Under the pieces are notes generated by a model that worked only from the letters and a program-made list of their open reading frames with translations, was not told the origin of the DNA and did no database searches. Shown in pieces: positions 38,265 to 59,428 of a stretch of 64,000 bases of DNA. Source of the DNA: a virus (Duplodnaviria > Caudoviricetes); the IMG/VR virus record IMGVR_UViG_3300037361_000044, positions 96,001-160,000 of that record; one strand, 5' to 3'. The stretch's first letter is position 1, and every line of letters starts with the position of its first letter. The translations under genes and the position numbers were made by a program.

Positions 38265-40301
38265 ATGAGTATCCCAGGCTCGTTGCAGATGGGTGGTGCT
38301 GGTGGCGCGTCGCGTTTTGCGCAGACGCGTGGGCGTATGGGCAACGGAATGAACCAAGGGGTGAACTACCCCAGTCCGTTCTTCGACATTGCGCATACGT
38401 ACCTGCCTACGACGGTCAAGGCGATGTTCCGGTGGTGCCGGTACTACTTCATGACCAACCCCATCATCAATGCCACGGTCTTCAAGCTCTCCGAGTACCC
38501 GATCACGGAGATTCAGATCGACCATCCAGAGCCCTCTGTGGCCAGACGTTGGAAGGAGTACTTCGAAGACCATCTGAATTACAGGGCGTTTCAGATCGAG
38601 TGCGGGCTCGACTACAACACGTATGGCAATTGCCTGTCGAGTTTGAGTTTCCCGTTCAAGAAGTACTTGACCTGTTCGTACTGCCAGCACCAGGCGGAGG
38701 CTAAGCGTATCCGTCCGCACTGGGTGTTCACCAACTACGAGTACCGACTTAGCTGTCCGAAGTGCGGGCAGGTCGGCACTGCCGCGGCCAAGGACATCTA
38801 CTTCAAGAATGAGGCCGGCATCTCGATGATGCGCTGGAGCCCGGAGGACGTTGAGATCAGCTACTCTGCTCTAACAGGCGAGCACACGTACTTCTACAAC
38901 ATCCCGCCGTCTGTTCGTAACGACGTCATCATCGGTAAGAAGGATGCCGTGGAGCAGGTGCCAGAGGTGTTCATCCAGGCACTACGCCAGCAGAAGGGCG
39001 TAGTGTTCTCGAAGGAGCTGTTCTTCCATCTCCGTCGTCCGACGCTGGCTGACCAGGACCGTGGCTGGGGGATCCCGCTGCTGCTGCCCTGTTTGAAGGA
39101 TACGTTCTACCTGCAGATCATGAAGAAGGCGCAGGAGGCTATCCTCCTCGAGCACATCGTGCCCCTTCGTATCCTGTTCCCGCAGGCAGGCTCTGGGACC
39201 TCGGATCCATACACATCGGTCAACCTGGTGGATTGGCGTGACCACGTGGCTACGGAAATAGCGCGTTGGCGCATGGATCCCAACTACATCCCAATCCTGC
39301 CGTTACCCGTTGGTAACCAGACGATTGGTGGGGATGGCCGCGCGCTGCTGATGGTTCAAGAGATGCAGACGTTGAGTGAGCAGCTCATCAACGGTATGCA
39401 GGTACCTCTGGAGTTCATCAAGGGTGGCTTGAGCTTCTCTGGTACGAACGTGTCTATGCGCATGCTCGAGAACCAGTTCATCATCTACCTGTCCCGCCAT
39501 CGTCGTATGGCGCGGTGGGTCATGCGCAGTGTCGCTGATTACCTTGGCTGGCCGCTGGCGGACATCCGCTTCAAGCCCTTCAAGATGGCTGATGACATCC
39601 AACGGAAGGCCTTCCTCTTCCAACTCAACCAGGCCAATAAAGTCAGCGACACCACGCTGCTGGCTGACTCCGATCTGGACCAGACGCGAGAAGACCAAAT
39701 CATGGAGCGCGAGACCGCTGCCCGTATCAAGGCGACGGAGAAGCAGCAGCTTGCCAACGCGGAACTGCAAGGCAAGCAGCAGGCCATCATGATGAAAATG
39801 CAGGCCAAAGCTCAGCAGGAAATGCAAGCCGCGTTGGCTGCCCCCTCCGCTCCGGGTGAGCCTGGTGGGCCAGATGCTGGCGCAGCGCCCCCCGGTGGGC
39901 AAGGTGGTGCACAAGTAGCTCCCGACAGCCCAATGGGGGCCATGCAGAGTCCACTCAATGCTGGACAAAACATGGGCATGGGCACCAGCCAATCCCCAGG
40001 GCAGTCGCCCCAGATGGGTGGCGCCAACATCATCGTGATGGCGCAGACCATCGCTCAGGAGCTCTCCACGTTGAATGCGGGGCAGCAGCTAATTGCCATC
40101 AAGAATCTGCGTATGCAGTCCCCAGAGCTGGCGGACTTGGTGATGCAGAACTTGCGGGCAATGCCGCAGCAGTCCAACGACCCAATGGCAATGGGAAACC
40201 CCAACGCGCAGCTGGGCATGAATGGGCAAGCAGCGCAGCAGGTGGATATGCGACCCTTGCCTGAGAAGCTTCCGCCTCGTCGCGCTGCAGGCATGGTCTG
40301 A
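38265..40301 (+). CDS. Portal protein with zinc-ribbon insertion
   Basis: NPIINATVFKLSEYP, DYNTYGNC, FHLRRP...GWGIP.L, Q-rich C-terminal tail; position in the head module. Confidence 0.7.
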   Translation: MSIPGSLQMGGAGGASRFAQTRGRMGNGMNQGVNYPSPFFDIAHTYLPTTVKAMFRWCRYYFMTNPIINATVFKLSEYPITEIQIDHPEPSVARRWKEYFEDHLNYRAFQIECGLDYNTYGNCLSSLSFPFKKYLTCSYCQHQAEAKRIRPHWVFTNYEYRLSCPKCGQVGTAAAKDIYFKNEAGISMMRWSPEDVEISYSALTGEHTYFYNIPPSVRNDVIIGKKDAVEQVPEVFIQALRQQKGVVFSKELFFHLRRPTLADQDRGWGIPLLLPCLKDTFYLQIMKKAQEAILLEHIVPLRILFPQAGSGTSDPYTSVNLVDWRDHVATEIARWRMDPNYIPILPLPVGNQTIGGDGRALLMVQEMQTLSEQLINGMQVPLEFIKGGLSFSGTNVSMRMLENQFIIYLSRHRRMARWVMRSVADYLGWPLADIRFKPFKMADDIQRKAFLFQLNQANKVSDTTLLADSDLDQTREDQIMERETAARIKATEKQQLANAELQGKQQAIMMKMQAKAQQEMQAALAAPSAPGEPGGPDAGAAPPGGQGGAQVAPDSPMGAMQSPLNAGQNMGMGTSQSPGQSPQMGGANIIVMAQTIAQELSTLNAGQQLIAIKNLRMQSPELADLVMQNLRAMPQQSNDPMAMGNPNAQLGMNGQAAQQVDMRPLPEKLPPRRAAGMV

Positions 40302-41998: not shown

Positions 41999-43255
41999 TT
42001 AGGCCAGCTCTTTCAGGAAGTTCTGTACGCCGCTCTTGGATAGACGCACCAGTACAGGTCTCGCTGCAGCAACCACATCGCTGTTGCCGGAGTGCACACC
42101 CAACTGGGCCTGGATAAGACCCTCCACGCAAGGCACAACAACGTCGGATAGCTGTGCGTCGAATAGCTGACCCAGGCTCTTCCACAGCAGCGGTGCCACC
42201 TCTAGCTGCGCATCACGTGACGGTTTTTGCCGTACGTATGCTGTGGCGCTGTTGTACGCAGCTAGCACGATGTCCAGCCGGTGGGGGTTTACCTTCCACT
42301 TGCCTGTGAGCACATCCATGGGTTTCGGTATGTCCGTTTCTGCTGCGTAGGTCATGAACATTGAGCCGGCCCCTTCGCCAACGCAGGAATACACCAACGC
42401 TTCGCGGATACTGTCACCCTTATGTAGGATGCTCGCAGTAGTCCACGCCCGCATGGCGTAGTCCCACGTGCGTGGCGATGGCCAGCTTTTGCTGCTTTGC
42501 GGGTCGGACGGTGCCGGCATCTTGTGTAGTAGCGACGGATTGGCTTCCATGAATGCGGTGAACAAGCCTAGGGTCTCGGGAAAGATGGAAGGCCAATCCG
42601 AGATGACTACCTCTTCGATCTCAGCCAGGGTTGCTTGTAATCCCTCCAAGGTGTTGCCCATCTGGAAGGCGCTCCACTCACGCGCTGTTGGACCGGGGTC
42701 GGTCACGTGCATGAAGCGGTTGGCTAGTGGCGGGGAGAACCTGAAGCCCCCGGTGGCTATGTCCTCGGGGTTCGACGCCGCGAGCATTCGAATGCCCCCA
42801 GGAATGGGCTGGTCCCCAGCCACCCGTTCATGGATGAAGCTTTGGATGGCACCCTGTGTGGCAGGCGTGGCGCCGTTCACCTCGTCGAGAAAGATGATGC
42901 CGCGCCCGACCTTGATGAGCTCGCGTACCTGAGAGAGCGGGCAGATCTGTCTGGCCCCTCCCTTACCATCCGGGATGAGCGCCCCGGAGAAGTCCTCGGG
43001 TGGATGCTGCGCTGCGAACAAAGACCTGGCACTGATGTGCAGTACCTTGCTCATCTGTTTGATGCGGGCGGTTTTGGCGTTGCCAGGTAGGCCTTCGATA
43101 ATGAGGGGCAACCCCCAGAGACAATCGTCGTGGCCAGGGTACCCGTCCATGGGGGAGGCCAAGGCCACCTCAACCAGCTCGTTTAGCTCTTTTCTCCCCA
43201 GCGGCATTGCGAGGGGATTGGTCAGCGCGGTTGTACTTGCTTTCTTAGTTGCCAT
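41999..43255 (-). CDS. MoxR-like AAA+ ATPase
   Basis: EGLPGNAKT, IFLDEVN, AASN, PLANRF, PSPRTW. Confidence 0.85.
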   Translation of the reverse strand: MATKKASTTALTNPLAMPLGRKELNELVEVALASPMDGYPGHDDCLWGLPLIIEGLPGNAKTARIKQMSKVLHISARSLFAAQHPPEDFSGALIPDGKGGARQICPLSQVRELIKVGRGIIFLDEVNGATPATQGAIQSFIHERVAGDQPIPGGIRMLAASNPEDIATGGFRFSPPLANRFMHVTDPGPTAREWSAFQMGNTLEGLQATLAEIEEVVISDWPSIFPETLGLFTAFMEANPSLLHKMPAPSDPQSSKSWPSPRTWDYAMRAWTTASILHKGDSIREALVYSCVGEGAGSMFMTYAAETDIPKPMDVLTGKWKVNPHRLDIVLAAYNSATAYVRQKPSRDAQLEVAPLLWKSLGQLFDAQLSDVVVPCVEGLIQAQLGVHSGNSDVVAAARPVLVRLSKSGVQNFLKELA

Positions 43256-43256
43256 T

Positions 43257-43868
43257 CTATCCATCTCCAGCAGGCTTGTGACAGTCGCAGTTTCCGTGTC
43301 TCCAGCAGCGTTCGTAGAGACCATCCAGGCACACCTGTAGACCGGGCTTGGGCTCGAGTGGGGCTTCCCATAGGGGCTCGTCCCGTCCGTCTTCCATGTG
43401 CTTTAGACAGCCGATGCAGATGTGGTAGTCGTTCTGCATCTCCACGAACTTCGGGGTAGGTTCCCCGTTTGGCGCGCGCTCTGACCAGTGCATCTCACCG
43501 AATTGCAAGATGGCCACGGTCTCGCCCAGCAGTACATCACTGCGGCAAGCATCGCACTCAATCACCCCGTCGTCATCTACTACGGGCGGAGCATCTTCTG
43601 TGAGCTCTCTTAGGTCTTCCAGCACCTCCTCGCCACAGTCGAAGCAGTAGAACGTTGGGTTGTACATGTAGTCGCCGTCTGCGCCCAACAGGTCCACATG
43701 CTGCACCGTGGTCTTCGGCTGCACCGGCTGCACGACGCGTAGGAGGAATATCTCCTCGGTCATCATCAGTTCCGCACCGCAGTGGGCGCATACGACTCCG
43801 GCGCTCTCGTCCGTGTCTATCTCGTCTTCATCTTCTTCATCTTCTTCGTCGGTTACGTACGCAACCAC
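43257..43868 (-). CDS. Acidic Cys-rich protein with a duplicated CxxC domain
   Basis: CAHC, CFDC, CDAC, CIGC. Confidence 0.55.
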   Translation of the reverse strand: MVAYVTDEEDEEDEDEIDTDESAGVVCAHCGAELMMTEEIFLLRVVQPVQPKTTVQHVDLLGADGDYMYNPTFYCFDCGEEVLEDLRELTEDAPPVVDDDGVIECDACRSDVLLGETVAILQFGEMHWSERAPNGEPTPKFVEMQNDYHICIGCLKHMEDGRDEPLWEAPLEPKPGLQVCLDGLYERCWRHGNCDCHKPAGDG

Positions 43869-44811: not shown

Positions 44812-47800
44812 ATGGCGTACCTGGATCCCAACGAGGCATTTGACCACTTCAGAGACCGAACTCTGGAGGCGATAGGGAAGCAATTCCCGGTCGACGGCAT
44901 CAATCAGGTGCTGAGCTTGGAGCGGCTTGAAGTACCTGACGAGCTAAGTCCGGATGATATTCGCAGTCAGCACCACGCCAAGGTGAACGGCCAGACGTGG
45001 GGTGTTCCAATCATCGCGCACCTGGCATTGACGAACAAGCAGACCGGGGAAGTGACGCGCTCCCGTACACGGATTGCTGAGCTGCCAAAGGTCACTGGTA
45101 GGCACAGCCACATCGTCAATGGGCAGGAGTACCAGGTAGACAACCAGTGGCAGCTCAAGCCCGGAGCCTACGTGCGGCGTCGGCAGACGGGGCAGATCGA
45201 GACCATGTTTCAGTCAAGCAAACGCCCGTCTTTCGACGTCACGTTTGACGACGCCTCCAAGGAGTTCAAGGCTGAGCTCCCCGGTGGTAAGGCTATTGTG
45301 CCGTTGTACCCGCTGCTGTCCGCGCTCGGCGTACATGACGACGAGTTGGAGAGGGCCTGGGGTAAGGACATCCTGCAGACCAACAAGAGCTCGCGCAACG
45401 TGGCCGGCGCCGTGGCGCAGTACTACAAGACTACGAAGCGTGAGGAGCCCAAGAGCCACGAGGATGCAGTCAGGCACCTGGTCGACTCTCTGAAGCAGAC
45501 CGACCTACGTCCGGAGTCTACGGACATCACGCTGGGTAAGCCCATAGACCATGTGAACGGTGACGCATTGCTTAGGGCGACCAAGCGCATGCTGGCTGTA
45601 CAACGGGGTGAGGCGCAGGACGACCGCGACTCGCTGGTATTCAAGGACCTGCGAAGCGTGGGTGATTTCTCTCACGACAAGATCATGGCGGCCAGCGGTG
45701 ACATCCGCAGGAAGATGCAGCGCAAGATCAATAAGGCGACGAGCCCGCGGGATGTGGTCCCGTTCGAGGCGTTCAACAAGCCTATCCGTGAGACGTTCTT
45801 CAAGAACTCCGCGGCGCAGGTGGCTAAGCAAATCAACCCGGTGGAGATGGTCTCTACCGCGCAGCAGACCACAGTGATGGGCCCCGGCGGCATCCAGTCA
45901 GAGCAGCAGATTCTGGATGAGGTGAAGTTCGTAAACGCTTCCCACATGGGATTCCTGGACCCCATTCACACGCCAGAGGGCAGCAAGACTGGTGTGACGC
46001 TGCGTATGCCAATCAGCGTCACCCAGCACGGTCACGAGCCTAGGATACCCCTGTACAACATGCGTACGGGCAAGACCGAGCAGGTTGGTCCCGCTACGTT
46101 CCTCCGGTCGAAAGTGGTCCTACCAGATCAGGTGACGTGGGACGGCGACAAGCCAGTGGCTAAGTATCCTGCGGTGAAGTGGTCTACCACAGGCAATGAA
46201 GTTGCCGATGGCCATCTCAAGGATGCGGACTACGTGATGAAGCACTCCTCGCAGTTCTTCAACATCACTAGCAATCTCATCCCGTTCGTCAACAATACGT
46301 CTGGTGGCCGTGCGTCTATGGCCACACGACACATGGAGCAGTCCATTTCCTTGCTGCACCGTGAAGCCCCCATGGTGCAGGTGGGCACCGGCAGTAGTAC
46401 GGCAGGTAGCCGTACGTTCGAGGAGATCATTGGTTCACAGGCGTCGCATCGGTCTCCGGTGTCGGGCACGGTGAAGGCTGTGAAGCACGATGCCGTGGTG
46501 GTGACTGACCACTTGGGCAAGGACCACGAGGTTCAGGTCTACCGCAATTACCCGCTGAATGACGCGAAGTCGGTACTCGACTCCACCATTCTGGTGAAGC
46601 CCGGCGACAAGGTGAAAGCCTCGCAGGTGGTGGCCGACACAAACTTCTCGCGTAATGGCACCATCGCGCTGGGTACAAACCTGCGCGTCGGCTACATCCC
46701 CTACAAGGGGTACAACTTCGAGGATGGTGTAGTCATCAGCGAGAGCGCCGCCAAGAAGCTGAGTAGTGTGCACTTGTACAAGCACAAGGTCGGTGTTGAT
46801 GACGATACGGTCCTAGCCAAGCGGCACTACATGACACAGCACCCTGGTCTGTACAGTAGGGATCAGTTCTCCAAGATAGGCGACAACGGTTTGGCCGTGG
46901 TCGGTTCGAAGGTGCAGCCTGGAGACCCCCTTGTACTGTCCATGAAGAAGGCCGTCGTGAAGGACAGGACTGGTCTGTCCGCTATTCGCAAGAGCTTGGG
47001 AGAGACCTACTCGGATAGATCTTTGACCTGGGAGGGTGAAGGACCTGGCGAGGTTGTAAGCTCGTTCAAGAAGGATGGGGAAGTCGTTGTCCACGTGCGC
47101 GCGGTAGAGCCCATGCAAGTGGGTGACAAGATGGCGGGGCGCTATGGTAACAAAGGCATCGTCACCAAGATCGTGCCCGACCACGAGATGCCACATACCC
47201 CAGACGGGCGGCATATCGAGGTGGCGCTAAACCCCTCCGGCGTTCCCGGCCGCATGAACATTGGGCAGGTGCTTGAGACTGCCGCAAGCAAGATTGCGGA
47301 GAAGACAGGTAAGCCCTACGTTGTGCAGAACTTCGATGGCACGAACCAGCTGGAGACCATTCAGGCGGAGTTGAAGAAGCACGGCATTAGCGACGTAGAA
47401 GACCTGTACGACCCGATGAACAAGCAGAAGTTGGGATCGGCGCTGGTAGGCAACCAGCACATGATCAAGCTGCACCATCAAGTCGACAAGAAGGTGTCGG
47501 TACGCTCTGGGCTCAACTTGCCAGGCGGCGGCGTAGAGAAGTACAACTCCAACCTGCAGCCCACAGGCGGTGGTCATTCTGGTGGGCAGTCCATGGACCC
47601 GCTAGGGTTGTACTCGCTACTGGCGCACGGCGCTCGAGCGAACATCCGAGAGATGCAGACATGGAAAAGCGAAGGACCGGACATGTCTGCCTCCGCCGCA
47701 AAGCAGTGGCAGAGTCAGCATCACGATGTGTGGGATGCCATTCAGCACGGTGACCCGTTGCCAACTCCCAAGCCTACATTCGCCTTCAAGAAGTTCACGG

Positions 47801-50800
47801 ACATGCTGACGGGTGCTGGCATCAACATCGAGAAGCACGGGCACGAGTTTGTGCTTACGCCACTCACCAATCAGCAGATCCATGCGTTGACGGGTGACCG
47901 TGTGCTGCCGAAGCCCGCTGAGCTGCTCTATGCCAAGCCCGATCCCAAGACGGGTGAGCCCCGCCCAAAGCCAGGTGGGTTATTCGACGAGCGGTTGACC
48001 GGTGGGCACGGCGGCAAGAAGTGGAGTCGAATGACTTTGGCAGAGCCGGTACCGAATCCGGTGTTTGCCGAGTCCATTCGAATGCTGGCTGGGTTATCGA
48101 ACGAGCACTACACCGGGCTGGTACATGGCACGCATGTACTGGGCGCGGACGGCAAGGTTGTACCTATGGGCCCCGGTATTACTGGGCAGGCCGGTGGTGC
48201 TGCCGTCGAAACCCTGCTGCACAAGGTGGACATCGACAAGGATTTGGCCGCCGCGCGCAAAGCCTTGGATACGCTTCCTGCATCCAAGGTCGACAAGACT
48301 TTGAAGAAGGTGAAGCGGCTACAGGCGTTGAAGGACGCAGGACTTGGTGCAGCGGAGGCGTACATACTGCACTCGCTGCCTATTGTCCCTCCGGCGATGC
48401 GCCCCATCACCGTAATGCATGACGGTAGCTTCAAGTTTGATGATATCAACCAGCTGTATTCTCAGTTAGCGCAGAACAACAGCCAGCTGCAGGACCCCAC
48501 GCTGCGTGACAACCTGCTACCCGAGCGCCGTAGGGACCTACGCAGGGACTTGTACGACGGGGTTGGCGCCGTCATGGGCGTAGGCGTTCCGTATGCGGAT
48601 GCTGCGCACAAGGGCTTGATTCACCAGATCCAAGGGGCGGCTCCGAAGACTGGTTACTTCCAGAGCACGCTCATCAGCCGCAAGCAGGACTTGAGCATGC
48701 GCTCCACGATTGTCCCGGAACCAGCCCTGTCCCTGGACGAGATCGGGCTGCCCAAGGAACACGCTATGAAGCTGTTCTCCCCCTTCGTGGTAGGCGAGCT
48801 GCGCAAGTCTGGCATGGCACTGAACGTGGCTGACGCGCAGAGCATGGTGGCGAAGAACGCGCCAGCGGCTCAGCGGGCATTGCAGCGGGTGATGACGGAT
48901 CGTCCTGTGCTCTTGAAGCGTGATCCGGCCCTGCACAAGTACAGCGTACAGGCGTTCAAGCCGCGAGTGGTGGACGGTAACGCCATCAAGATTCATCCGC
49001 TAGTGACCGGCGGGTACAACGCGGACTTTGACGGCGACACCATGAGCGTGTTCGTACCTATCGGGCAGGACGCGGTGGCGGAGGCGCACAAGATGCTGCC
49101 CTCGAACAACTTGTTCAGCGAGGCTACAGGGAAGGTCATGTACCAACCCACCCTCGAGTCGGCGCTAGGGTTGTACAAGCTGTCGCGGGTCACTGACGCC
49201 AAGGTTCACCATGTGCAGCACCCAGCTGATGCCATCAAACTCGTGCAGACGGGCAAGCTGTCCGTCAACGACAGGGTGCAGTATGGGGGCCAGGTGACCA
49301 CCACTGGTCGCATTCTGATGGCAGCAGCGCTACCTGAGCCCATGCAGCAGTCCATTCTAGGAGACCTGCATAAAAGCCTGGATAAGAAGGGCCTCGACAC
49401 GCTGCTGACGCAGGTGGCTCGGGAGCATTCCGGGGACTACGGCTCTGTAGCAGACAAGCTGAAGGACATTGGCAACGGTGCCGCTAGTGGCGTCGTGACG
49501 GTGGAGCACAACAACTACACTGGAGACCACCGGTTGGACCCCCAGAAGCGGACGTATGTGCCAGTCGGGGTTCACACGTTGGCTCTGTCCGACTTCACCC
49601 CGGACATCGCTACGCGCGAGCATGTGTTGGCTCCTGTCCGCGTGGAGGTTGCCAAGATCAAGGGCAGCAGCATGACGCAGTACGCCAAGGACGCGGCAAC
49701 CGTGCGTGCCTGGTCAGCGGCAGACCAGCAGATGCAGAAGGACCACATGGCGAAGGCCACAGACAAGCCCTCGAACCTCATGACAATGCACTTGGCTGGC
49801 GTGAAGCCAGGCTGGGGGCAGTACAAGCAACTAACCCTCGCTCCGATGCTGGTGGCAGACGCATCAGGCCGCACTATCCCCGTGCCAATCACCAAGAGCT
49901 ACGCAGAGGGGCTGGACACGGGGGACTACTGGAACCAGATGCACGGGGCCCGTCGAGGGGCTGTGATGAAGGTCCAGGAAGTCCGTGAACCTGGTTACCT
50001 GTCGAAGCTGCTCATGGCCAACACCATGGACATGGTCGTCAATGGGGAGGATTGTGGTACCACGCGTGGCATTGCGCTGCCGGTCACAGACTCGGATGTG
50101 CATGACCGCATCCTGCAGAAGGACTTCAGCGTAAAGGGCGTGCACATCCCTGCCGGCACGATGCTGACGCCAAACCTGGTGTCTCGCATGCGTGCGGTGA
50201 GTCCCCGCGAGCAGATTGTGGTGCGGAGTCCGTTGAAGTGCGAGCACGCGAAGGGGGTTTGCCAGAAGTGCATGGGACTGTCATCGGACGGGAACATGCA
50301 TCAGATCGGCGAGAACATCGGTGTGTCAGCCGCGCAGTCGCTGGGGGAGCGCGCAGTGCAGCTGACTATGCGTGTGTTCCACACAGGCGGCACGGTGGAT
50401 ACCGGGGGTGGCTCCAAGGTGCTTGGGGAGTTTGACCGGTTGAATCAGCTCATGATGCTGCCAAAGCACATTGCCGATTCGTCCACACTTGCCATGCACA
50501 CGGGCACCATCGAGAAGATAGAGCCCACGGCGACCGGCGTCACCGTCTACATCTCCGGCAAGAAGCACCACGTGGGCAAGGACGCCAAGGGCGCCCCGCT
50601 GTGGAAACCTCTCGTGGACGCGGCCCCTGGCTGGGCTCCGCCAAAGGTGGGGATGCAGGTTACCAAGGGGCAGGTGTTGAGCGATCCATTGCGTACTCTG
50701 GTGAACCCACACGACCTGTACAAGGCCACTGGCAACATGGAGACCGTCCAGAACTACTTGGCGGACCAGGTGCATGCTCTGTACAAGGGTGAGGGCATCA

Positions 50801-51213
50801 AGCGCAAGCACGTGGAGACCGTGGTGAAGGCCATGAGCAACCTCACCAAGATCGAGGCGGCTGGGGATTACCCAGGTGTCCTCCGCGGGGAGTTTCATCC
50901 GACTTCTAAGATTGCCGCGCTGAACAGGGAGCTCATCCGGGCTGGAAAGACGCCCATCGAGCACAAGCCTGTACTGAAGGGGGTGGACATCATGCCGCTT
51001 TCGGTGCAGGAAGACTGGATGGCCAAGATGCAGCACATCCGGTTGAGCAAGACCCTGCTCGACGCGGCGGCCACGGGTGGTACATCGAACATCCACAGCT
51101 TGCACCCTATCCCCGGCATGGCCTACGGCGCTGAATTCGGTCTGAATCAGGAGCACGCCAAGAAGCGTCTGGCTTTGTCGCACCTACATGACGTGAAGGG
51201 ACACGAGTACTGA
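44812..51213 (+). CDS. rpoBC: Fused DNA-directed RNA polymerase beta-beta' subunit (single polypeptide)
   Basis: Beta motifs: TPEG, GYNFEDG, GDKMAGRYGNKG, NPSGVPGRMNIGQ. Beta' motifs: KRDPALH, NADFDGD (49018-49038), PGYLSK, DCGT, RSPLKC..GVCQKC, AAQSLGE..QLTMRVFHTGG. Confidence 0.95.
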   Translation: MAYLDPNEAFDHFRDRTLEAIGKQFPVDGINQVLSLERLEVPDELSPDDIRSQHHAKVNGQTWGVPIIAHLALTNKQTGEVTRSRTRIAELPKVTGRHSHIVNGQEYQVDNQWQLKPGAYVRRRQTGQIETMFQSSKRPSFDVTFDDASKEFKAELPGGKAIVPLYPLLSALGVHDDELERAWGKDILQTNKSSRNVAGAVAQYYKTTKREEPKSHEDAVRHLVDSLKQTDLRPESTDITLGKPIDHVNGDALLRATKRMLAVQRGEAQDDRDSLVFKDLRSVGDFSHDKIMAASGDIRRKMQRKINKATSPRDVVPFEAFNKPIRETFFKNSAAQVAKQINPVEMVSTAQQTTVMGPGGIQSEQQILDEVKFVNASHMGFLDPIHTPEGSKTGVTLRMPISVTQHGHEPRIPLYNMRTGKTEQVGPATFLRSKVVLPDQVTWDGDKPVAKYPAVKWSTTGNEVADGHLKDADYVMKHSSQFFNITSNLIPFVNNTSGGRASMATRHMEQSISLLHREAPMVQVGTGSSTAGSRTFEEIIGSQASHRSPVSGTVKAVKHDAVVVTDHLGKDHEVQVYRNYPLNDAKSVLDSTILVKPGDKVKASQVVADTNFSRNGTIALGTNLRVGYIPYKGYNFEDGVVISESAAKKLSSVHLYKHKVGVDDDTVLAKRHYMTQHPGLYSRDQFSKIGDNGLAVVGSKVQPGDPLVLSMKKAVVKDRTGLSAIRKSLGETYSDRSLTWEGEGPGEVVSSFKKDGEVVVHVRAVEPMQVGDKMAGRYGNKGIVTKIVPDHEMPHTPDGRHIEVALNPSGVPGRMNIGQVLETAASKIAEKTGKPYVVQNFDGTNQLETIQAELKKHGISDVEDLYDPMNKQKLGSALVGNQHMIKLHHQVDKKVSVRSGLNLPGGGVEKYNSNLQPTGGGHSGGQSMDPLGLYSLLAHGARANIREMQTWKSEGPDMSASAAKQWQSQHHDVWDAIQHGDPLPTPKPTFAFKKFTDMLTGAGINIEKHGHEFVLTPLTNQQIHALTGDRVLPKPAELLYAKPDPKTGEPRPKPGGLFDERLTGGHGGKKWSRMTLAEPVPNPVFAESIRMLAGLSNEHYTGLVHGTHVLGADGKVVPMGPGITGQAGGAAVETLLHKVDIDKDLAAARKALDTLPASKVDKTLKKVKRLQALKDAGLGAAEAYILHSLPIVPPAMRPITVMHDGSFKFDDINQLYSQLAQNNSQLQDPTLRDNLLPERRRDLRRDLYDGVGAVMGVGVPYADAAHKGLIHQIQGAAPKTGYFQSTLISRKQDLSMRSTIVPEPALSLDEIGLPKEHAMKLFSPFVVGELRKSGMALNVADAQSMVAKNAPAAQRALQRVMTDRPVLLKRDPALHKYSVQAFKPRVVDGNAIKIHPLVTGGYNADFDGDTMSVFVPIGQDAVAEAHKMLPSNNLFSEATGKVMYQPTLESALGLYKLSRVTDAKVHHVQHPADAIKLVQTGKLSVNDRVQYGGQVTTTGRILMAAALPEPMQQSILGDLHKSLDKKGLDTLLTQVAREHSGDYGSVADKLKDIGNGAASGVVTVEHNNYTGDHRLDPQKRTYVPVGVHTLALSDFTPDIATREHVLAPVRVEVAKIKGSSMTQYAKDAATVRAWSAADQQMQKDHMAKATDKPSNLMTMHLAGVKPGWGQYKQLTLAPMLVADASGRTIPVPITKSYAEGLDTGDYWNQMHGARRGAVMKVQEVREPGYLSKLLMANTMDMVVNGEDCGTTRGIALPVTDSDVHDRILQKDFSVKGVHIPAGTMLTPNLVSRMRAVSPREQIVVRSPLKCEHAKGVCQKCMGLSSDGNMHQIGENIGVSAAQSLGERAVQLTMRVFHTGGTVDTGGGSKVLGEFDRLNQLMMLPKHIADSSTLAMHTGTIEKIEPTATGVTVYISGKKHHVGKDAKGAPLWKPLVDAAPGWAPPKVGMQVTKGQVLSDPLRTLVNPHDLYKATGNMETVQNYLADQVHALYKGEGIKRKHVETVVKAMSNLTKIEAAGDYPGVLRGEFHPTSKIAALNRELIRAGKTPIEHKPVLKGVDIMPLSVQEDWMAKMQHIRLSKTLLDAAATGGTSNIHSLHPIPGMAYGAEFGLNQEHAKKRLALSHLHDVKGHEY

Positions 51214-52466
51214 TGCGCGGAGGCATGAAAGCAGCAAGAGGTGGTCGACACCCCCGCACGGAGTTCCGTACCAGCATGACCTCACCGGAGGGCTTGGGGG
51301 AGACGGACATCTTCATGTGCCGCGTGGTGAATGTGGATCTGGTGAACTACACGGTGGACGTGTACAGCCAGTTCGACCAGATGAGCATCCCAGCGGTGCC
51401 CATCGGCTCTCCATACCTGCACCCGAATCGAGGTGACGGCTTTTCTGTGACGCCGGAGGTGGGTTCGAAGTGCGCGGTGTGCTGGCCGGGGGACAGCTCC
51501 CCTCCTTTCATCATGGCCTTTGTGATGCCGCACGAGACAGTGCCCATGTCGGGCAGTACCGACGCACCCAATGGTACGTCTGATCGTGCCAGCTCCAACC
51601 AGGCGCCGACTTCTGCAAGCTTTGCTGGGGGTCGTGAAAAGGGCAAACCTGGCGACATGGGGATGCGCGGCAGGGATGGCCAGTTCATTATCCTGCATCG
51701 TGGCGGGGTGCTGCAGGTAGGCAGCACCGAGCTTGCGCAACGCTTGTACATACCACTGAACAACCTTGTAATGGATGTGGCTGAGAACTACGCCATGTAC
51801 AACTCTGGTGGTTCAATCAAGTGGGGAATACAAGAGGGCGAAGGCGAGACCAAGCTACCAGCTGAGTTCAAGCAGACGTTTCGTGTGTACGCCAACGAGC
51901 AGTACGCAGACGTGCGCGTGGGTGTTGGGCGACTGCATGACCCCGTACCCGAGACGGATGAGGATGGCATCACTGACCTGCAGGCGGCTGGCGTAGGCAA
52001 GACTGAGCCCGTGGTCTACGAGATGGCTTTGGCCCGCAATGGGTTCAAGGCAGAGGACGGGGCGCTTCTGGCAGGCACCGGTAGTCTGGTGAAGCTGCGT
52101 CTCGTATTCGACCGCGCCGGCAACACGTTCATGCGAATGGACGGCAACGTCAGCATCTTGTGCAAGAAGAAGCTGCGCGTGCGTGTGAAGGGCGAGCTCG
52201 AGGTCTTTGCCGACAACTCCTTCAGCATGACGGTGGCTCAGGGGGCCAAGGTCACCGTAGGTGGAAGCTTGGAGATCTCGGCGCCTGTCATTCGAATCAA
52301 CGGCGGAGACAAGCCCTTCGCCAGGGTGGGGGACCAGGTATCGGTGACGCTGCCGCCCACGCTGCTCATGGTGTCTCCGACACCACCAGGCTTCTCACCA
52401 ATCCCGCCAGGACTCAACACAACTATCGGCGTAATCACCAGCGGCCGCGCTGACTTCTTGGGCTAA
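51213..52466 (+). CDS. Baseplate central spike (gp5/gpV-like) with PAAR-like C-terminus
   Basis: N-terminal OB-like fold (PEVGS.C.V), beta-helix repeats, KPFARVGD...GVITSG. Confidence 0.6.
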   Translation: MRGGMKAARGGRHPRTEFRTSMTSPEGLGETDIFMCRVVNVDLVNYTVDVYSQFDQMSIPAVPIGSPYLHPNRGDGFSVTPEVGSKCAVCWPGDSSPPFIMAFVMPHETVPMSGSTDAPNGTSDRASSNQAPTSASFAGGREKGKPGDMGMRGRDGQFIILHRGGVLQVGSTELAQRLYIPLNNLVMDVAENYAMYNSGGSIKWGIQEGEGETKLPAEFKQTFRVYANEQYADVRVGVGRLHDPVPETDEDGITDLQAAGVGKTEPVVYEMALARNGFKAEDGALLAGTGSLVKLRLVFDRAGNTFMRMDGNVSILCKKKLRVRVKGELEVFADNSFSMTVAQGAKVTVGGSLEISAPVIRINGGDKPFARVGDQVSVTLPPTLLMVSPTPPGFSPIPPGLNTTIGVITSGRADFLG

Positions 52467-53123: not shown

Positions 53124-55166
53124 ATGCCCCAGCTATTCCGCACCACGCAGCTCGAATTCAACAAGACGGCCGCAGAGACCGCGCTGCCTGAGGAGCCCAA
53201 CGCCTGGCCCGATGCGGTGCTCCAGGAACTATACAAGCAGGTACCATACTTGGCTGACTTCGACCTCGAGGTTGTAATGACCGCGGTCGATGGTGAGCGC
53301 GGGTACGGTCTTGGGCATGTGGAGGTCTCGAGCAAGACCGAAGCGCCAATGACCGCGCCAAGTGAGCAGCTTCAAGCTGCGGGCATTCGAAAGTCCCGTA
53401 TTCCCGTGATCATCAAGGACAGCAAGCTGCTGCCCTTTGACATCCTGGTCACCGACGACTCCAAGGCGCTGCCCCTTACCGAAGGGCGACTGCGCCAGGC
53501 CATGTTCCGCCCGCAGAACTTCGACGTTACCTCGAAGACGCCCGGAGACCAGTCCATGATCGGCCAGCTGTACCCGCCTTTCCGCCAGAACTACGGGTTC
53601 GGTGGTGGTGGCGTTGCCACCAGCGCAGGCATGGGCGGTAAGACGGCTTCGGTCATGTTCAAAGAGGCGTCTGCTTCCATCCTGACGGGGGTGCTGTCCA
53701 CGGCGAATGTCACGGACCTGGCTGCCTTCGGAGAGGCGCTACAGGACGAGATGCTGAAGCAAGCCTTCATCGAGAACCCAGGTGCGTACGACGCGCTAGT
53801 GAAAGTGGCGGAGGCCAAGCCCTCGAGTACTGAGAAGCTGGCGTCGGCCATCCGCTACGGAATCCGCCCCAGTGTTGAGCAGATTGGCAGCGTCGGGGAC
53901 GGGACGTATTTCCGTAAGACCGCAAGCCACCATGCGTGGGACCCCAGCACGGAGATCCTCGACCGCGGGGAGCTGGTTGCTAGGTACGGGGTGAAGTTGG
54001 CGTTGGCCGCAGATACCGCCGGTGCCTTGACCCTCGCGCCCGACGGCGCAGGCCCCGTTGCCGAGGAGCCCGCACCGGGAGCTGGTGCCGGTCCGATCTC
54101 AGCCCCAGGCATGTACCAGGTGCAGACCACGGATGGGCAATCCCTTGCCGGTGCTGTCATCACCAATCTGCTTGATGTGGACGGTACGGCGCTTCCCATC
54201 TCCCTATTTGTGGATGGTCAGCACGCCGCGGTGCAGTCCGACATCTCTGGCAGCCCCATTGGGGAGTTCTCCCCTCCTGGAGCAGTCCCGGCCGAGCAGG
54301 CCAGTGGTAAGGGCGTGTTCTACTTCGAGGCTGGCGGTATCCCCACCGCCACCATACCGCTGTCCCTTGGGGCCACTGTGGCGCCGCTGCCTGGCGCCGA
54401 GGACACGGCTCACTTCGATGCCCAGACCTTCGATGGCCGTCAAATCAGCGTCAGCATTCAGGGGTATGTCGCTACCGTGGTCGGTGTGGAAGACCAGATG
54501 ATCATTCCCGACAGCTGGCAGTGGATCCCCCTCGACGCCGCGGAGGAGGTCACGCTGGCGGAGACCCCCGGAGAGGTGGGCAAGGTGGCTTCCGTCGCAC
54601 AGCGTTGCACCACGGTGGACATCCTGGCTGGTGGTGTCGATAGCTATGCGCTGCGGGGCATGCCGGTTGAGAAGCTGGCGTCCGATGATCGGAACTTCCT
54701 GACGCAGGACCAGGCGTTATTCGTTTTGGTTGGCTGCGGGGCCGACCCGCAGCAAGCCCAGCAGAAGCTGGCGCAGGCGCTTTCCGTACCCTCCCGCAAG
54801 ACCAGCATGCAGGTTGCCAATCAGCTGAAGATGGCCGCAGAGGTGCGGGGTGAAAGCTACCTGCAGGCTTCGAAGTACTTGGACAATATGCCAGTACATC
54901 GGGTGCGCATGTGGAAGGAAGCCGCGGTCATCCCCGACCCGGTTGCCGTGGACACCGTGCTCAGCCTGGGCTTCCTAAATCCCGAGAATATCTCCGCCTT
55001 CGTTGGGTACCTACCCACACTGGATGAGGCACAACGGCGCATGTGCGAGCTGCTGATTGGGGCACGCTTGGGTCTTCGGGAGCTGTCCGATGGGGCGCTC
55101 GAGCGTGCCATCCGGGCAGTAGAAGATGTAGTTGAAGGCCTCAAGGTCATAGCTTTCCAGGGCTAA
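53124..55166 (+). CDS. Head-module protein rich in K-x-A motifs
   Basis: About 13 KxA(S/A) motifs; C-terminal D..AVDTVLSLGFLNPENI. Confidence 0.6.
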   Translation: MPQLFRTTQLEFNKTAAETALPEEPNAWPDAVLQELYKQVPYLADFDLEVVMTAVDGERGYGLGHVEVSSKTEAPMTAPSEQLQAAGIRKSRIPVIIKDSKLLPFDILVTDDSKALPLTEGRLRQAMFRPQNFDVTSKTPGDQSMIGQLYPPFRQNYGFGGGGVATSAGMGGKTASVMFKEASASILTGVLSTANVTDLAAFGEALQDEMLKQAFIENPGAYDALVKVAEAKPSSTEKLASAIRYGIRPSVEQIGSVGDGTYFRKTASHHAWDPSTEILDRGELVARYGVKLALAADTAGALTLAPDGAGPVAEEPAPGAGAGPISAPGMYQVQTTDGQSLAGAVITNLLDVDGTALPISLFVDGQHAAVQSDISGSPIGEFSPPGAVPAEQASGKGVFYFEAGGIPTATIPLSLGATVAPLPGAEDTAHFDAQTFDGRQISVSIQGYVATVVGVEDQMIIPDSWQWIPLDAAEEVTLAETPGEVGKVASVAQRCTTVDILAGGVDSYALRGMPVEKLASDDRNFLTQDQALFVLVGCGADPQQAQQKLAQALSVPSRKTSMQVANQLKMAAEVRGESYLQASKYLDNMPVHRVRMWKEAAVIPDPVAVDTVLSLGFLNPENISAFVGYLPTLDEAQRRMCELLIGARLGLRELSDGALERAIRAVEDVVEGLKVIAFQG

Positions 55167-57592: not shown

Positions 57593-59428
57593 ATGGCTGC
57601 CGCTGAAAGGTTTACTGAGGACTACTCGGAGCACCCGGACGACTCTGGTGCAGAGGGTACCCCACTTTCTGATGAAGAGCTACAACGCCTGGCCGAGCTC
57701 GATAGGTGGGTGCCGGAGGCCGAGGAGTACTTGGACCTCTGCACGGATGACGACCCGTACAAGTTCCTCCGGGACGGTGACGCTCCGGTAATCCTCCCGT
57801 CTAGCTTCACTGAGTACGCCTTCTGGATGCCCACGAGCAACGGCTACGAGCAGTTCTCGTTCGAGGGGCGTCATCATCTGCGGCAGGTCTACGACACCCC
57901 ACGGCGTCGTGTATTGCTCATGTGCGGTCGTCAGGTCGAGAAGTCCACACTTCTTGGCAACAGGGCTTTGGCCTTGGGGTGTCTCATCCCCGCCTACAAG
58001 ACCCTTTATGTTAGCCCCTCGGCAACGCAAACCAAGACGTTCTCTAACGACCGTGTGAAGGATCCTATCGAGACCAGCCCTGTGCTGCGGGCCTTCACGA
58101 ACCGCATGCTGTCGCAGAACGTTTTCGAGAAGCAGTTCATCAACCGCTCGAAGATCACACTGCGTTACGCCTTCCTCAACGCTGACCGCGCGCGCGGTAT
58201 CCCAGCCAACCAGCTCCTCATCGACGAAATCCAGGACATCCTATCGGACAACATCCCGGTCATCGAGCAGTGCTTGTTCCACTCCCCCGAGGAGCTGAAG
58301 CGGTTCGTCTACTCAGGGACGCCCAAGACCCTGGACAACGTGATCGAGGATTATTGGAGCAACCGTTCCACGCAGAACCAGTGGGTGGTGCCCTGTGACT
58401 GCACGGGCGGGGAAGCGGGCCGTTACTGGAACATCCTTGGCGAGAAGAACATCGGCAAGAAGCACCTGATCTGCGAGCACTGCGGCAAGCAGATCTTTCC
58501 AATGGGTCCAGCCTCACAGTGGGCCAGCGCCGTGGAGTACGACCCGGTTCATACGCCCTTCGAGGGGTACCGCATCCCCCAGCTCATGGTCCCGTGGCTG
58601 GACTACAACGAGCTGCTCTACAACTACAACAGCTACTCCCGCAACAAGTTCTACAACGAGACGTTGGGTATTTCCTTCGATAGCGGGTTGCGGCCGCTCA
58701 CGAAAGCGCAGGTTCGCTCGAATTGCATCGAGACCATTCACATGGCGGATGCGGACAAGTACCAGAAGCTGTCCTTCAGCCAGCCTATCTTTGCTGGAAT
58801 CGACTGGGGCACAGGCGAGAACACGTACACGGTGCTCTCCCTGGGCATGTACATTCGGAACAAGTTTCGGATCTTCTATGTGCACAGGTTCACAGGAGAG
58901 GACATCGAGCCAGATCGGCAGCAGGAGAAGATTCGAGATATTCTACGCACGTTCAATGTGCGCATCATCGGCGCCGACTATGGTGGCGGCTACTATCCCA
59001 ACGACTACTTGACCCGCCAGTTTGGCCCAGACCGGCTGATGAAGTACCAGTACGTGGCCAGGCTCACGTCGAAAGTACGCTGGGAGAACAAGTTGCGGCG
59101 TTGGATGGTGCACCGCTCAGAGGTGATGAGTGCCATCTTCAATGCCATCAAGCGTGGCAATGTATTTGAGTTTCCACGTTGGGCTGAGTTCAATGACCCG
59201 TACGGCCAGGACATGCTCAACATCTTCAGCGAATACAACGAGAAGCTGCGCATGATTCAGTACGGGCACACCGCAGGAAAGACGGACGATACATTTCACT
59301 CCATCCTGTACTGCTTCCTGGCTTCCATGGTCATGCGTCCACGCCCGGACATCATCGCCCCTGGCAAGGAGGCCGAGGGGGTTGGCCCCGTCTGGAGTTC
59401 GTACTCGGGGCCTGTTGACCAGGGTTGA
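57593..59428 (+). CDS. terL: Terminase large subunit (lambda gpA-like)
   Basis: GRQVEKST, IDEIQD, SGTPKT, zinc ribbon, NETLG, GIDWG nuclease motif, DD.FH. Confidence 0.9.
   Translation: MAAAERFTEDYSEHPDDSGAEGTPLSDEELQRLAELDRWVPEAEEYLDLCTDDDPYKFLRDGDAPVILPSSFTEYAFWMPTSNGYEQFSFEGRHHLRQVYDTPRRRVLLMCGRQVEKSTLLGNRALALGCLIPAYKTLYVSPSATQTKTFSNDRVKDPIETSPVLRAFTNRMLSQNVFEKQFINRSKITLRYAFLNADRARGIPANQLLIDEIQDILSDNIPVIEQCLFHSPEELKRFVYSGTPKTLDNVIEDYWSNRSTQNQWVVPCDCTGGEAGRYWNILGEKNIGKKHLICEHCGKQIFPMGPASQWASAVEYDPVHTPFEGYRIPQLMVPWLDYNELLYNYNSYSRNKFYNETLGISFDSGLRPLTKAQVRSNCIETIHMADADKYQKLSFSQPIFAGIDWGTGENTYTVLSLGMYIRNKFRIFYVHRFTGEDIEPDRQQEKIRDILRTFNVRIIGADYGGGYYPNDYLTRQFGPDRLMKYQYVARLTSKVRWENKLRRWMVHRSEVMSAIFNAIKRGNVFEFPRWAEFNDPYGQDMLNIFSEYNEKLRMIQYGHTAGKTDDTFHSILYCFLASMVMRPRPDIIAPGKEAEGVGPVWSSYSGPVDQG

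What the first reader, a model, noticed from the sequence alone, without database searches (positions are those of the whole stretch)
44812..51213. Phage-encoded, minimised single-chain beta-beta' RNA polymerase of bacterial type
Seen in sequence: one 2133-aa ORF carries beta motifs in order, followed without a stop by beta' motifs. The junction is near 47820-47860 (…GAGINIE|KHGHEFVLTPLT…) and the catalytic NADFDGD is intact. The beta' N-terminal zinc-binding domain is deleted (GGLFDERLTGG is followed directly by KKWSRMTLAEP with no Cys cluster), and the flap-tip and clamp helices are divergent. Established: E. coli beta plus beta' total about 2750 aa; fusions occur in Helicobacter and Wolbachia; phiKZ-like phage RNAPs are split, and crAss virion RNAPs are single-chain but remote. 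Inference: this is a distinct phage RNAP type, still close to the bacterial subunits, that may work without alpha or sigma (neither is encoded in this window).
Basis: partly seen in the sequence, partly recalled or inferred. Interest (0 to 1): 0.9.

Follow-up and report, generated by a model that had tools for sequence, protein, structure and literature searches.

The report
Single-chain bacterial-type phage RNA polymerase
A complete 190-kb uncultured phage encodes both large subunits of a bacterial-type RNA polymerase as one 2133-residue protein; hundreds of related phages share this design and carry their own sigma factor, and I found no paper that describes it.

Summary
Window 44812-51213 (+) is one uninterrupted 2133-codon ORF with the beta domains followed by the beta' domains. 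The joint is at GAGINIE|KHGHEF (nt 47812-47850), NADFDGD is intact, and the beta' N-terminal zinc-binding domain is missing. The protein has only four cysteines, all in the second zinc site.

The contig is a phage genome (190,298 bp, CheckV 100%) with portal, terminase and replication genes and a single RNAP gene. The fusion is not an assembly artefact. More than 150 clusters at 50% identity span the joint, and the joint persists in relatives whose gene is split elsewhere (Salmonella phage Arash, Vibrio phage D69).

"Minimised" is overstated, because about two thirds of the shortfall against E. coli is lineage-specific insertions.

"Works without sigma" is not supported. The genome encodes a sigma-70-family factor outside the window, orthologous to Arash virion sigma Gp10. 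It co-occurs with the fused gene, and a model places it on the clamp helices. No alpha or omega homologue was found, so independence from alpha remains possible.

The likely role is the core of a phage holoenzyme, probably packaged in the virion.

Earlier follow-ups in this scan reached the same conclusion on other genomes. Rating: new variant of a known kind.

The parts
44812..51213 (+). Whole fused beta-beta' RNA polymerase gene (2133 aa + stop)
   Evidence: only RNAP copy in the 190-kb genome
44812..47832 (+). beta module (aa 1-1007), ending in GAGINIE, which aligns with the C-terminal GINIE of bacterial beta
   Evidence: phmmer vs PDB: aa 52-1009 align to cyanobacterial beta 71-1059 of 1104; MAFFT
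45781..45900 (+). Rifampicin-pocket region with D516K, H526T, R529Q, S531T (E. coli numbering)
   Evidence: alignment; rifampicin insensitivity is an inference from known resistance positions
47122..47157 (+). beta double-psi barrel motif GDKMAGRYGNKG (active-site lysines K1065/K1073 equivalents)
47812..47868 (+). beta/beta' joint, GAGINIE|KHGHEFVLTPLT, with no linker; about 18 beta' N-terminal residues are missing
   Evidence: ordered in the AF2 model (pLDDT 92-95 around the joint)
47833..51213 (+). beta' module (aa 1008-2133)
   Evidence: phmmer vs PDB: aa 1120-2094 align to bacterial beta'; TIGR02386 rpoC 469 bits
47974..48048 (+). Site of the deleted N-terminal zinc-binding domain (GGLFDERLTGG-HGG-KKWSRMTLAEP)
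   Evidence: absent in all family members aligned, and in Arash and Vibrio D69; present in Rhizobium phage Y65 beta'
48448..48549 (+). Clamp helices (aa 1213-1246), predicted docking site of the phage sigma region 2
   Evidence: complex prediction interface; alignment
49018..49038 (+). Catalytic NADFDGD (aa 1403-1409)
   Evidence: D1405, D1407, G1408, D1409 invariant in 49 family members
50053..50271 (+). Second zinc site: C1748, C1810, C1817, C1820, the only four cysteines of the protein
50359..50391 (+). Trigger-loop motif QLTMRVFHTGG
51213..52466 (+). Downstream 417-aa gene whose ATG overlaps the RNAP stop; probable baseplate central-spike (gp5/VgrG-like) protein
   Evidence: Weak but converging: PHROG baseplate E=0.008; Atlas feature hits to Gp5_OB/Phage_base_V clusters, 0.94-0.96; Gp5_trimer_C, Gp5_C and Phage_base_V each hit by a single orthologue (E 9e-4 to 0.018); synteny conserved in 4 relatives. 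The fold failed (pLDDT 41)
38265..40301 (+). Portal protein (orthologue of Arash Gp204)
   Evidence: tblastn 31% identity, E 3e-77
57593..59428 (+). Large terminase (orthologue of Arash Gp1; PF05876)

Best explanation
The gene encodes the catalytic core of the phage's own DNA-dependent RNA polymerase. It is a bacterial-type beta and beta' joined head to tail in one chain, without the lineage-specific insertions and without the beta' N-terminal zinc-binding domain.

Shown here: the reading frame, the domain order, and intact catalytic elements (two double-psi barrels, NADFDGD, bridge helix, trigger loop, second zinc site). Also shown: the phage context, and conservation of the joint across a large phage lineage.

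Inferred: (1) The chain pairs with the phage's own group-3-like sigma factor (G000 26952-27722, outside the window). The contacts would be the usual clamp-helix/sigma-2 and flap-tip/sigma-4 contacts, and the holoenzyme would read phage promoters. (2) The enzyme is made late with the structural proteins, packaged in the capsid, and injected to transcribe early genes independently of host RNAP. This follows the finding that its Arash orthologues Gp206/Gp216 and sigma Gp10 are abundant in purified virions. (3) The covalent joint substitutes at least partly for the alpha2 assembly platform, since the genome encodes no alpha or omega. (4) The substituted rifampicin pocket makes phage transcription insensitive to rifampicin.
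For: ORF and motifs.

Phage genome: a complete phage genome with a single RNAP gene.

Conservation of the fusion: 120 clusters of about 2130 aa at 54-87% identity, on contigs up to 200 kb. The best 150 representatives at 50% identity all have E<1e-153, most with one stretch across the joint.

The joint survives secondary splits: Arash and Vibrio D69 carry beta+beta'N | beta'C; L016 carries betaC+beta'N | beta'C; L019 is split about 90 aa after the joint.

Tree: in a beta' tree rooted on 6 bacteria, all phage forms are one clade (SH-aLRT 100). The joint-fused forms are a sub-clade, also supported at 100. Rhizobium phage Y65, which has a separate beta' with the zinc domain intact, falls outside that sub-clade.

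Sigma: it shows sigma-70 regions 2-3 (PDB hits 7e-8; Pfam r3 9e-11; FliA/WhiG and SigB/F/G subfamilies) and is 35% identical to Arash Gp10. Eighty-five homologue clusters were found.

Predicted complex of sigma with aa 1010-1440: ipSAE 0.81, best of 3 controls 0.00 (mark reached by 58 of 80 solved complexes and 2 of 110 mismatched pairs). Runs agree in at least 43% of contacts; partner pLDDT at least 72. The interface is the clamp helices 1213-1246 against sigma 39-82. Sigma/beta' complexes are solved, so the pass may reflect likeness only.

Virion association in Arash: Gp206 gave 3516 spectra (the most of any protein), Gp216 gave 1210 and Gp10 gave 467 (PMC10585845).

Operon: the RNAP stop overlaps the start of a probable baseplate-spike gene, in a layout conserved in 4 relatives.

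Alpha and omega: no alpha NTD, alpha CTD or omega hit in the genome, while the control genomes all score.
Against: No experiment exists for this phage. Packaging is inferred from a relative at 31% identity, and the Arash authors themselves warn that abundant enzymes may contaminate virion preparations.

The complex prediction is for a textbook pair and cannot tell a phage-core partner from a host-core partner.

Absence of alpha and omega rests on Pfam HMMs. A divergent platform protein among the many ORFs of unknown function, or recruitment of host alpha, is not excluded.

The spike assignment of the downstream gene is weak: every E-value is above 1e-4 and the fold failed.

Read-level support at the joint could not be obtained.
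Confidence: 0.7

Rival explanations
1. The same enzyme, but not packaged. It is synthesised after infection and, with the phage sigma, transcribes middle or late genes, while host RNAP reads the early genes. This would make it a non-virion RNAP, as in phiKZ nvRNAP or T7.
For: There is only one RNAP gene, whereas phiKZ-like phages need a separate virion set. The Arash virion list also contains many metabolic enzymes, which suggests carry-over. The fused gene has its own upstream intergenic region with a TATACT-like element.
Against: The Arash orthologue gave the highest spectral count in purified virions, and the sigma was also present. The gene sits between portal and terminase and is translationally coupled to a probable baseplate gene.
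Confidence: 0.22
2. The fused chain still needs the host alpha dimer (and perhaps omega) to fold and assemble. The fusion would then be a neutral gene-structure variant, as in Helicobacter, not a replacement for alpha.
For: The beta and beta' parts are near-complete bacterial-type modules. From established knowledge, not tested here: artificial and natural beta-beta' fusions in E. coli and Helicobacter still use alpha.
Against: The genome encodes no alpha or omega. A packaged enzyme would have to carry host alpha with it. phiKZ/AR9 RNAPs are active without alpha (PMC7598289).
Confidence: 0.3
3. The phage sigma redirects the host core polymerase (as T4 gp55 or SPO1 gp28 do) and is not the partner of the fused enzyme, which would use another factor or none.
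For: Many phages without their own RNAP encode sigma factors (PMC7824862). Arash has a second sigma, Gp196. The complex model cannot discriminate between cores.
Against: The sigma and the fused RNAP co-occur on the same contigs across the clade. Both are abundant in Arash virions. The model places sigma-2 on the phage clamp helices with score 0.81, best control 0.00.
Confidence: 0.15
4. The fusion is an artefact (assembly or frameshift error), or the gene is an ordinary cellular rpoBC on a misbinned bacterial contig.
For: None found. Some relatives do show frameshifted or fragmented genes that look like assembly errors (L015, L017).
Against: The same open frame occurs in more than 150 independent clusters from JGI, ENA, NCBI and Logan assemblies. 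The context is phage. Identity to bacterial beta is 25% and to beta' 29%. NCBIfam scores are far below the cut-offs.
Confidence: 0.01

Closest known systems
RNA polymerase of Salmonella phage Arash (Gp206 + Gp216, sigma Gp10; OQ632216, PMC10585845) and of Vibrio phages D69/D148/D181
   Same: The same RNAP lineage: 30-32% identity over 97% of the length, and the sister clade in the beta' tree. Both have the beta C-terminus covalently joined to the beta' N-terminus, the zinc-binding domain deleted at the same place, and an orthologous sigma. Portal, TerL, MCP and several structural proteins are also shared.
   Different: In Arash and Vibrio the gene is cut after the catalytic domain (1525 + 606 aa). 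The pieces are separated by 9 genes in Arash, or by small ORFs and a homing endonuclease in Vibrio. Their motif is AADYDGD and their trigger loop is divergent. The window enzyme is one chain with canonical NADFDGD and trigger loop. The Arash paper calls the pieces 'beta' and 'beta'' and does not note the fusion.
mReC: multisubunit-RNAP-encoding Caudovirales (Weinheimer & Aylward 2020, PMC7481178)
   Same: Uncultured tailed phages with beta and beta' close enough to bacterial ones to be found by COG0085/COG0086, forming a clade apart from cellular RNAPs.
   Different: Every mReC entry I read in Supplementary Data 2 (one of its parts plus four rows from another) has separate beta (about 1000-1560 aa) and beta' (about 900-1390 aa) proteins. 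mReC MCP is PF07068 and TerL is PF03237. Here the MCP has no Pfam hit and TerL is PF05876. The paper mentions neither a fusion nor a sigma.
Cellular RpoBC fusions of Helicobacter/Wolinella and Wolbachia (NCBIfam NF007172, NF011417)
   Same: A head-to-tail beta-beta' fusion at the natural C-terminus/N-terminus contact.
   Different: Those are full-size cellular enzymes (2839-2890 aa) with the zinc domain, alpha and omega. The window protein scores 206+326 and 190+266 bits against cut-offs of 5372 and 4632. The fusion arose independently in a phage lineage.
phiKZ/AR9-type jumbo-phage multisubunit RNAPs
   Same: Phage-encoded two-barrel RNAPs that lack alpha and omega. One set is packaged in the virion and the enzymes are rifampicin-resistant (PMC7598289).
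   Different: Those are split into 4-5 polypeptides, occur as two paralogous sets, are highly divergent, and have no sigma homologue. Here there is one gene, one chain and strong similarity to bacterial subunits (PDB E 1e-100), with a sigma-70-family factor present.
crAss-like phage single-chain virion RNAP (gp66 type) and YonO
   Same: A single polypeptide carrying both barrels.
   Different: Those are so remote that COG/Pfam models do not detect them (PMC7481178). The window protein hits five Rpb1/Rpb2 Pfam domains at E 1e-8 to 1e-58.

Membership tests
Bacterial-type multisubunit RNAP large subunits (beta/beta') | beta double-psi barrel with the two active-site lysines, and beta' barrel with NADFDGD | tested here: met
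   GDKMAGRYGNKG at aa 771-782 and NADFDGD at aa 1403-1409; invariant in the family
Bacterial-type multisubunit RNAP large subunits (beta/beta') | Bridge helix, trigger loop and second zinc site of beta' | tested here: met
   Alignment to Salmonella beta' 769-805, 910-945, and C814/C888/C895/C898
Bacterial-type multisubunit RNAP large subunits (beta/beta') | beta' N-terminal zinc-binding domain (Cys70/72/85/88) | tested here: not met
   Replaced by HGG; there is no cysteine before aa 1748
Bacterial-type multisubunit RNAP large subunits (beta/beta') | Scores above the NCBIfam rpoB/rpoC equivalog cut-offs | tested here: not met
   359 vs 896 bits (NF001616); 469.5 vs 963.5 bits (TIGR02386)
Bacterial-type multisubunit RNAP large subunits (beta/beta') | Works with an alpha dimer and omega | tested here: inconclusive
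   No PF01000, PF01193, PF03118 or PF01192 hit in the 190-kb genome; use of host alpha cannot be tested with these tools
Bacterial-type multisubunit RNAP large subunits (beta/beta') | Initiation through a sigma-70-family factor bound to the clamp helices and flap tip | tested here: inconclusive
   A sigma gene is present and co-occurs with the RNAP. The model supports clamp-helix binding (0.81, best control 0.00), but this is a textbook pair. No biochemistry.
Cellular RpoBC fusion (Helicobacter / Wolbachia type) | Cellular chromosomal context and a score above the NF007172 / NF011417 cut-offs | tested here: not met
   Phage genome; scores are an order of magnitude below the cut-offs
mReC (Weinheimer & Aylward) | Separate beta and beta' genes of at least 800 aa each | tested here: not met
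   One 2133-aa ORF here; every mReC row I read lists two proteins
mReC (Weinheimer & Aylward) | MCP of family PF07068 and TerL of family PF03237 | tested here: not met
   MCP (G000 164182-165303) has no Pfam hit; TerL hits PF05876
phiKZ/AR9-type jumbo-phage RNAP | beta and beta' each split into two or more polypeptides, two paralogous sets, no sigma | tested here: not met
   Single fused gene and single copy; sigma present
Arash-type phage RNAP lineage (joint-fused, zinc-domain-less) | beta C-terminus covalently continued by the beta' N-terminus, with the zinc domain deleted | tested here: met
   Shared with Arash, Vibrio D69, L016 and L019. In the beta' tree Arash, Vibrio D69 and L016 form the sister group (SH-aLRT 93), and L019's beta' (P0417) nests among the fully fused forms
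Arash-type phage RNAP lineage (joint-fused, zinc-domain-less) | Orthologous sigma (Gp10 type) in the same genome | tested here: met
   35% identity, E 2e-29
Arash-type phage RNAP lineage (joint-fused, zinc-domain-less) | Presence in purified virions | not testable with these tools
   Known only for Arash (PMC10585845)

The most novel reading that the evidence does not exclude
The fused chain plus the 256-aa phage sigma form a complete two-polypeptide bacterial-type holoenzyme. It would fold and work without alpha or omega, be packaged in the capsid, and be injected to start rifampicin-resistant early transcription. That would make it the simplest natural sigma-dependent 'multisubunit' RNA polymerase known, and one present in hundreds of phages.
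Probability: 0.35. Interest if true: 0.8.

Novelty: new variant of a known kind. Interest (0 to 1): 0.62.

Why it matters
If the single chain is active with only its own sigma, it would show that a bacterial-type RNAP can dispense with the universally conserved alpha platform without being fragmented as in phiKZ. The question of what alpha is needed for would then become directly testable.

It would also provide a compact two-gene, sigma-programmable, probably rifampicin-insensitive transcription system for structural work and synthetic biology.

Evolutionarily, the joint and the loss of the zinc domain mark a large, so far unnamed lineage of ~190-kb phages. The lineage has cultured members (Arash, Vibrio D69). 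Its RNAP is closer to bacterial enzymes than any characterised phage RNAP.

Tried and rejected
- Fold of the downstream 417-aa protein from a 6-row alignment: pLDDT 41, unusable, so no fold search was made.
- The search for related loci in genome contigs: only a 2-kb Myxococcota-MAG fragment was found, which gives no host clue.
- Literature searches for a described fully fused bacterial-type phage RNAP: nothing found.
- Sigma-70 consensus promoter and terminator scan around the gene: no more sites than in shuffles.
- BLASTP of the downstream genes against Arash Gp217-Gp225: no significant match.
- Apparent 'separate beta / beta'' relatives were examined. L015 is a frameshift inside a conserved beta motif, and L017 has out-of-frame junk at the break. 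Both look like assembly errors. L019 is a real split, but about 90 aa downstream of the joint.
- A second Arash sigma (Gp196) has no homologue in this genome.
- No tRNA genes in the window.

Full report
OBSERVATION. Window 44812-51213 (+) is a single ORF of 2133 codons. Pfam finds Rpb2_3, Rpb2_6, Rpb1_1, Rpb1_2 and Rpb1_5 in that order. PHROGs hits two families of unknown function that cover the beta and beta' halves, plus the phiKZ-type 'RNA polymerase beta subunit' families. GAGINIE occupies aa 1001-1007 (nt 47812-47832) and aligns with the last residues of Salmonella beta (…SLGINIELEDE). KHGHEFVLTPLT follows at once and aligns with beta' from about residue 12. NADFDGD is at aa 1403-1409. 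The protein contains only four cysteines (1748, 1810, 1817, 1820). These align with E. coli beta' C814/C888/C895/C898, so the N-terminal zinc-binding domain (Cys70/72/85/88) is truly absent: GGLFDERLTGG-HGG-KKWSRMTLAEP bridges beta' 64-99.

CONTEXT. The window is bases 96001-160000 of a 190,298-bp IMG/VR virus record that CheckV rates 100% complete. The window carries the following genes:
- a family-A DNA polymerase, a DnaB-like helicase, a DnaG-like primase, and an SNF2 helicase with a LAGLIDADG insert;
- a portal gene at 38265-40301 and a large terminase at 57593-59428;
- an HNH endonuclease.

tblastn of the protein against its own genome finds no second RNAP copy. The gene heads a plus-strand block. 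Its stop overlaps the ATG of a 417-aa gene, which has weak but converging similarity to baseplate central-spike proteins: PHROG baseplate E 0.008; Atlas feature hits to Gp5_OB/Phage_base_V clusters at 0.94-0.96; and Gp5_trimer_C, Gp5_C and Phage_base_V each hit by a single orthologue. The order AAA-ATPase(-) / two small genes(-) / RNAP(+) / ~418 aa / ~214 aa / ~700 aa is kept in four relatives at 55-78% identity.

ANATOMY. phmmer against PDB sequences aligns aa 52-1009 with bacterial beta almost end to end (cyanobacterial beta 71-1059 of 1104). It aligns aa 1120-2094 with bacterial beta' (E 1e-89 to 1e-102 across Thermus, Firmicutes, Actinobacteria, Proteobacteria and others). Archaeal and eukaryotic subunits score only 1e-18 to 1e-24. 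The even scores across bacterial phyla argue against recent capture from any one of them.

Against Salmonella beta+beta' (2749 aa), the missing blocks fall into two groups.
- Lineage-specific insertions of enterobacteria, 412 aa in total: beta 215-296 and 318-356 (SI1), 938-1049 (SI2), 1126-1141 and 1161-1195; and beta' 948-1112 (SI3).
- Genuinely unusual losses: beta' 12-29, the zinc domain, beta' 127-151, 552-568, 704-717, part of the jaw (1148-1189), and the last 15 residues.

'Minimised' is thus only moderately true. Identity to Salmonella is 25% for beta and 29% for beta'. The active-site lysine motif, bridge helix and trigger loop are canonical.

The rifampicin pocket carries D516K, H526T, R529Q and S531T. 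From the known resistance positions, this predicts insensitivity.

An AlphaFold2 model of aa 870-1480, built on 49 family sequences, has mean pLDDT 88.6 and pTM 0.85. The joint lies in blocks of pLDDT 92-95. Foldseek matches the model to bacterial beta' and cyanobacterial gamma chains (E about 1e-31, TM 0.62 over the beta' part).

FAMILY AND HISTORY. The word-indexed search returned 120 clusters at 90% identity. They are 54-87% identical and 2119-2163 aa long, or 2400-3000 aa when they carry LAGLIDADG or intein domains. They lie on contigs of up to 200 kb from JGI, ENA, NCBI and Logan.

An exhaustive phmmer search with aa 640-1500, which spans the joint, gave 14,329 hits. The best 150 representatives at 50% identity all have E<1e-153. 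Most have one stretch crossing the joint and lengths of about 2000-2160 aa, or longer with inteins. The fusion is therefore real and old.

The closest cultured relatives are Vibrio phages D69/D148/D181 (30% identity, 97% coverage) and Salmonella phage Arash. There the gene is cut after the catalytic domain (1525-1527 aa + 606-609 aa), but the beta/beta' joint and the zinc-domain deletion are the same.

Other layouts also keep the joint. L016 has betaC+beta'N (991 aa) followed by beta'C (616 aa). L019 is cut about 90 aa after the joint, at an ATGA-type overlap. Two apparent beta|beta' splits, L015 and L017, are frameshifts that look like assembly errors.

In a quick maximum-likelihood tree of the beta' part (31 rows, LG+G4, rooted on six bacterial sequences from three groups), all phage sequences form one clade (SH-aLRT 100). 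Rhizobium phage Y65 branches first; it has a separate 1127-aa beta' that keeps the four zinc-domain cysteines. The Arash/Vibrio/L016 group (93) is sister to the clade that holds the fully fused forms (96). The bacterial sample is small, so this tree says nothing about where the phage clade attaches among bacteria.

Inteins sit at about aa 388 (PIHTPEG), 775-785 (GDKMAGRYGNKG), 1410-1415 (just after NADFDGD) and 1860-1865 (trigger loop) in various members.

PARTNERS. A Pfam search of the whole genome gave a weak Sigma70_r2 hit in a 256-aa ORF at G000 26952-27722, which is 68 kb upstream of the window. Several results identify this ORF as a sigma factor:
- It matches sigma factors of known structure over regions 2-3 (E 7e-8).
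- It matches Pfam Sigma70_r3 (9e-11) and the FliA/WhiG and SigB/F/G NCBIfam subfamilies, far below their cut-offs.
- It ends in a region-4-like helix-turn-helix.
- It is 35% identical (E 2e-29) to Arash Gp10.

Its 85 homologue clusters lie on contigs whose lengths coincide with those of the RNAP hits in six cases.

A complex prediction of this sigma with aa 1010-1440 gave ipSAE 0.81, with the best of three controls at 0.00. That mark was reached by 58 of 80 solved complexes and by 2 of 110 mismatched pairs. The runs agree in at least 43% of contacts and the partner pLDDT is at least 72. The interface is the clamp helices 1213-1246 against sigma residues 39-82. Sigma/beta' complexes are abundantly solved, so this pass shows that the interface is still sigma-like, not that these two proteins bind.

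Pfam models for the alpha N-terminal domain, alpha dimerisation, alpha C-terminal domain and omega found nothing in the genome, while they scored in 13-14 of 14 control genomes.

MECHANISM. The best-supported reading is that this is the core of the phage's own holoenzyme, directed by the phage sigma. In Arash, purified virions gave 3516 spectra for Gp206 (the highest of any protein), 1210 for Gp216 and 467 for sigma Gp10 (PMC10585845). The gene here sits among portal, terminase and baseplate genes. Together these points suggest that the enzyme is made late, packaged, and injected to transcribe early genes, as in phiKZ or N4.

This last step is an inference from a relative at 31% identity, and the Arash authors caution about carry-over. 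Whether the covalent joint replaces the alpha platform is open. phiKZ/AR9 enzymes prove that alpha-less two-barrel RNAPs exist (PMC7598289), but host alpha could be recruited.

COMPARISON AND NOVELTY.
- The enzyme is not a member of the cellular rpoB, rpoC or RpoBC equivalogs.
- It does not match the mReC set as defined. Every mReC row I read has separate subunits, and the MCP and TerL families differ.
- It is not phiKZ-like, because it is a single copy, unsplit, and has a sigma.
- It is not crAss-like, because it is readily detected by Pfam.
- It belongs with the Arash/Vibrio-phage lineage, of which it is the unsplit form.

I found no paper that describes a fully fused bacterial-type phage RNAP. 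The Arash paper annotates the pieces as beta and beta' without comment.

Earlier follow-ups in this scan reached the same conclusion on other genomes of the family. This report adds five points:
- the joint survives all secondary splits;
- the zinc-domain loss is a second shared marker of the lineage;
- the protein has only four cysteines;
- the mReC supplement was checked for fused entries;
- sigma was modelled docking on the clamp helices.

I rate the finding a new variant of a known kind.

Noticed in passing
G000 26952-27722 (68 kb upstream of the window; locus L003:1264-2034): A 256-aa sigma-70-family factor (regions 2, 3, 4; group-3-like), orthologous to the virion sigma Gp10 of phage Arash and conserved in the same ~190-kb phages as the fused RNAP.
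   Followed up: yes
family members P0009, P0015, P0023-P0025, P0031 etc., mapped to P0001 aa ~388, ~775-785, ~1410-1415, ~1860-1865: Relatives carry large insertions at the most conserved catalytic motifs (PIHTPEG, GDKMAGRYGNKG, just after NADFDGD, trigger loop), giving proteins of up to 4739 aa. Many of the inserted proteins carry LAGLIDADG (PF14528) and one carries PF14890 intein-splicing domains. The window copy has no such insertion.
   Followed up: partly
window 31409-34180 (-): A 923-aa SNF2/ResIII helicase with a LAGLIDADG homing-endonuclease domain at aa 341-408; it may be an intein-containing helicase.
   Followed up: no
window 40618-43324 (-): A DUF2201 metallopeptidase/VWA protein and a MoxR-like AAA_5 ATPase are transcribed divergently from the RNAP gene. 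The ATPase is syntenic in three of four relatives (L021-L023).
   Followed up: partly
window 55163-55840 (-): An HNH homing endonuclease (phrog_374, E 8e-62) on the opposite strand inside the plus-strand structural block.
   Followed up: no
window 45781-45900: The rifampicin pocket of the beta module carries D516K, H526T, R529Q and S531T, which predicts intrinsic rifampicin insensitivity.
   Followed up: partly
L019:11026-11373 (relative with the RNAP split ~90 aa after the joint): A 115-aa ORF with a weak Sigma70_r4 match lies directly after the beta' piece. It may be a minimal sigma-like factor encoded next to the polymerase in that sub-lineage.
   Followed up: no
L006 (JBMOIG010000394.1, 2-kb contig of a Myxococcota MAG): A fragment 34% identical to the N-terminus of the fused RNAP is binned with a Myxococcota MAG. 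It is too short to serve as host evidence.
   Followed up: no
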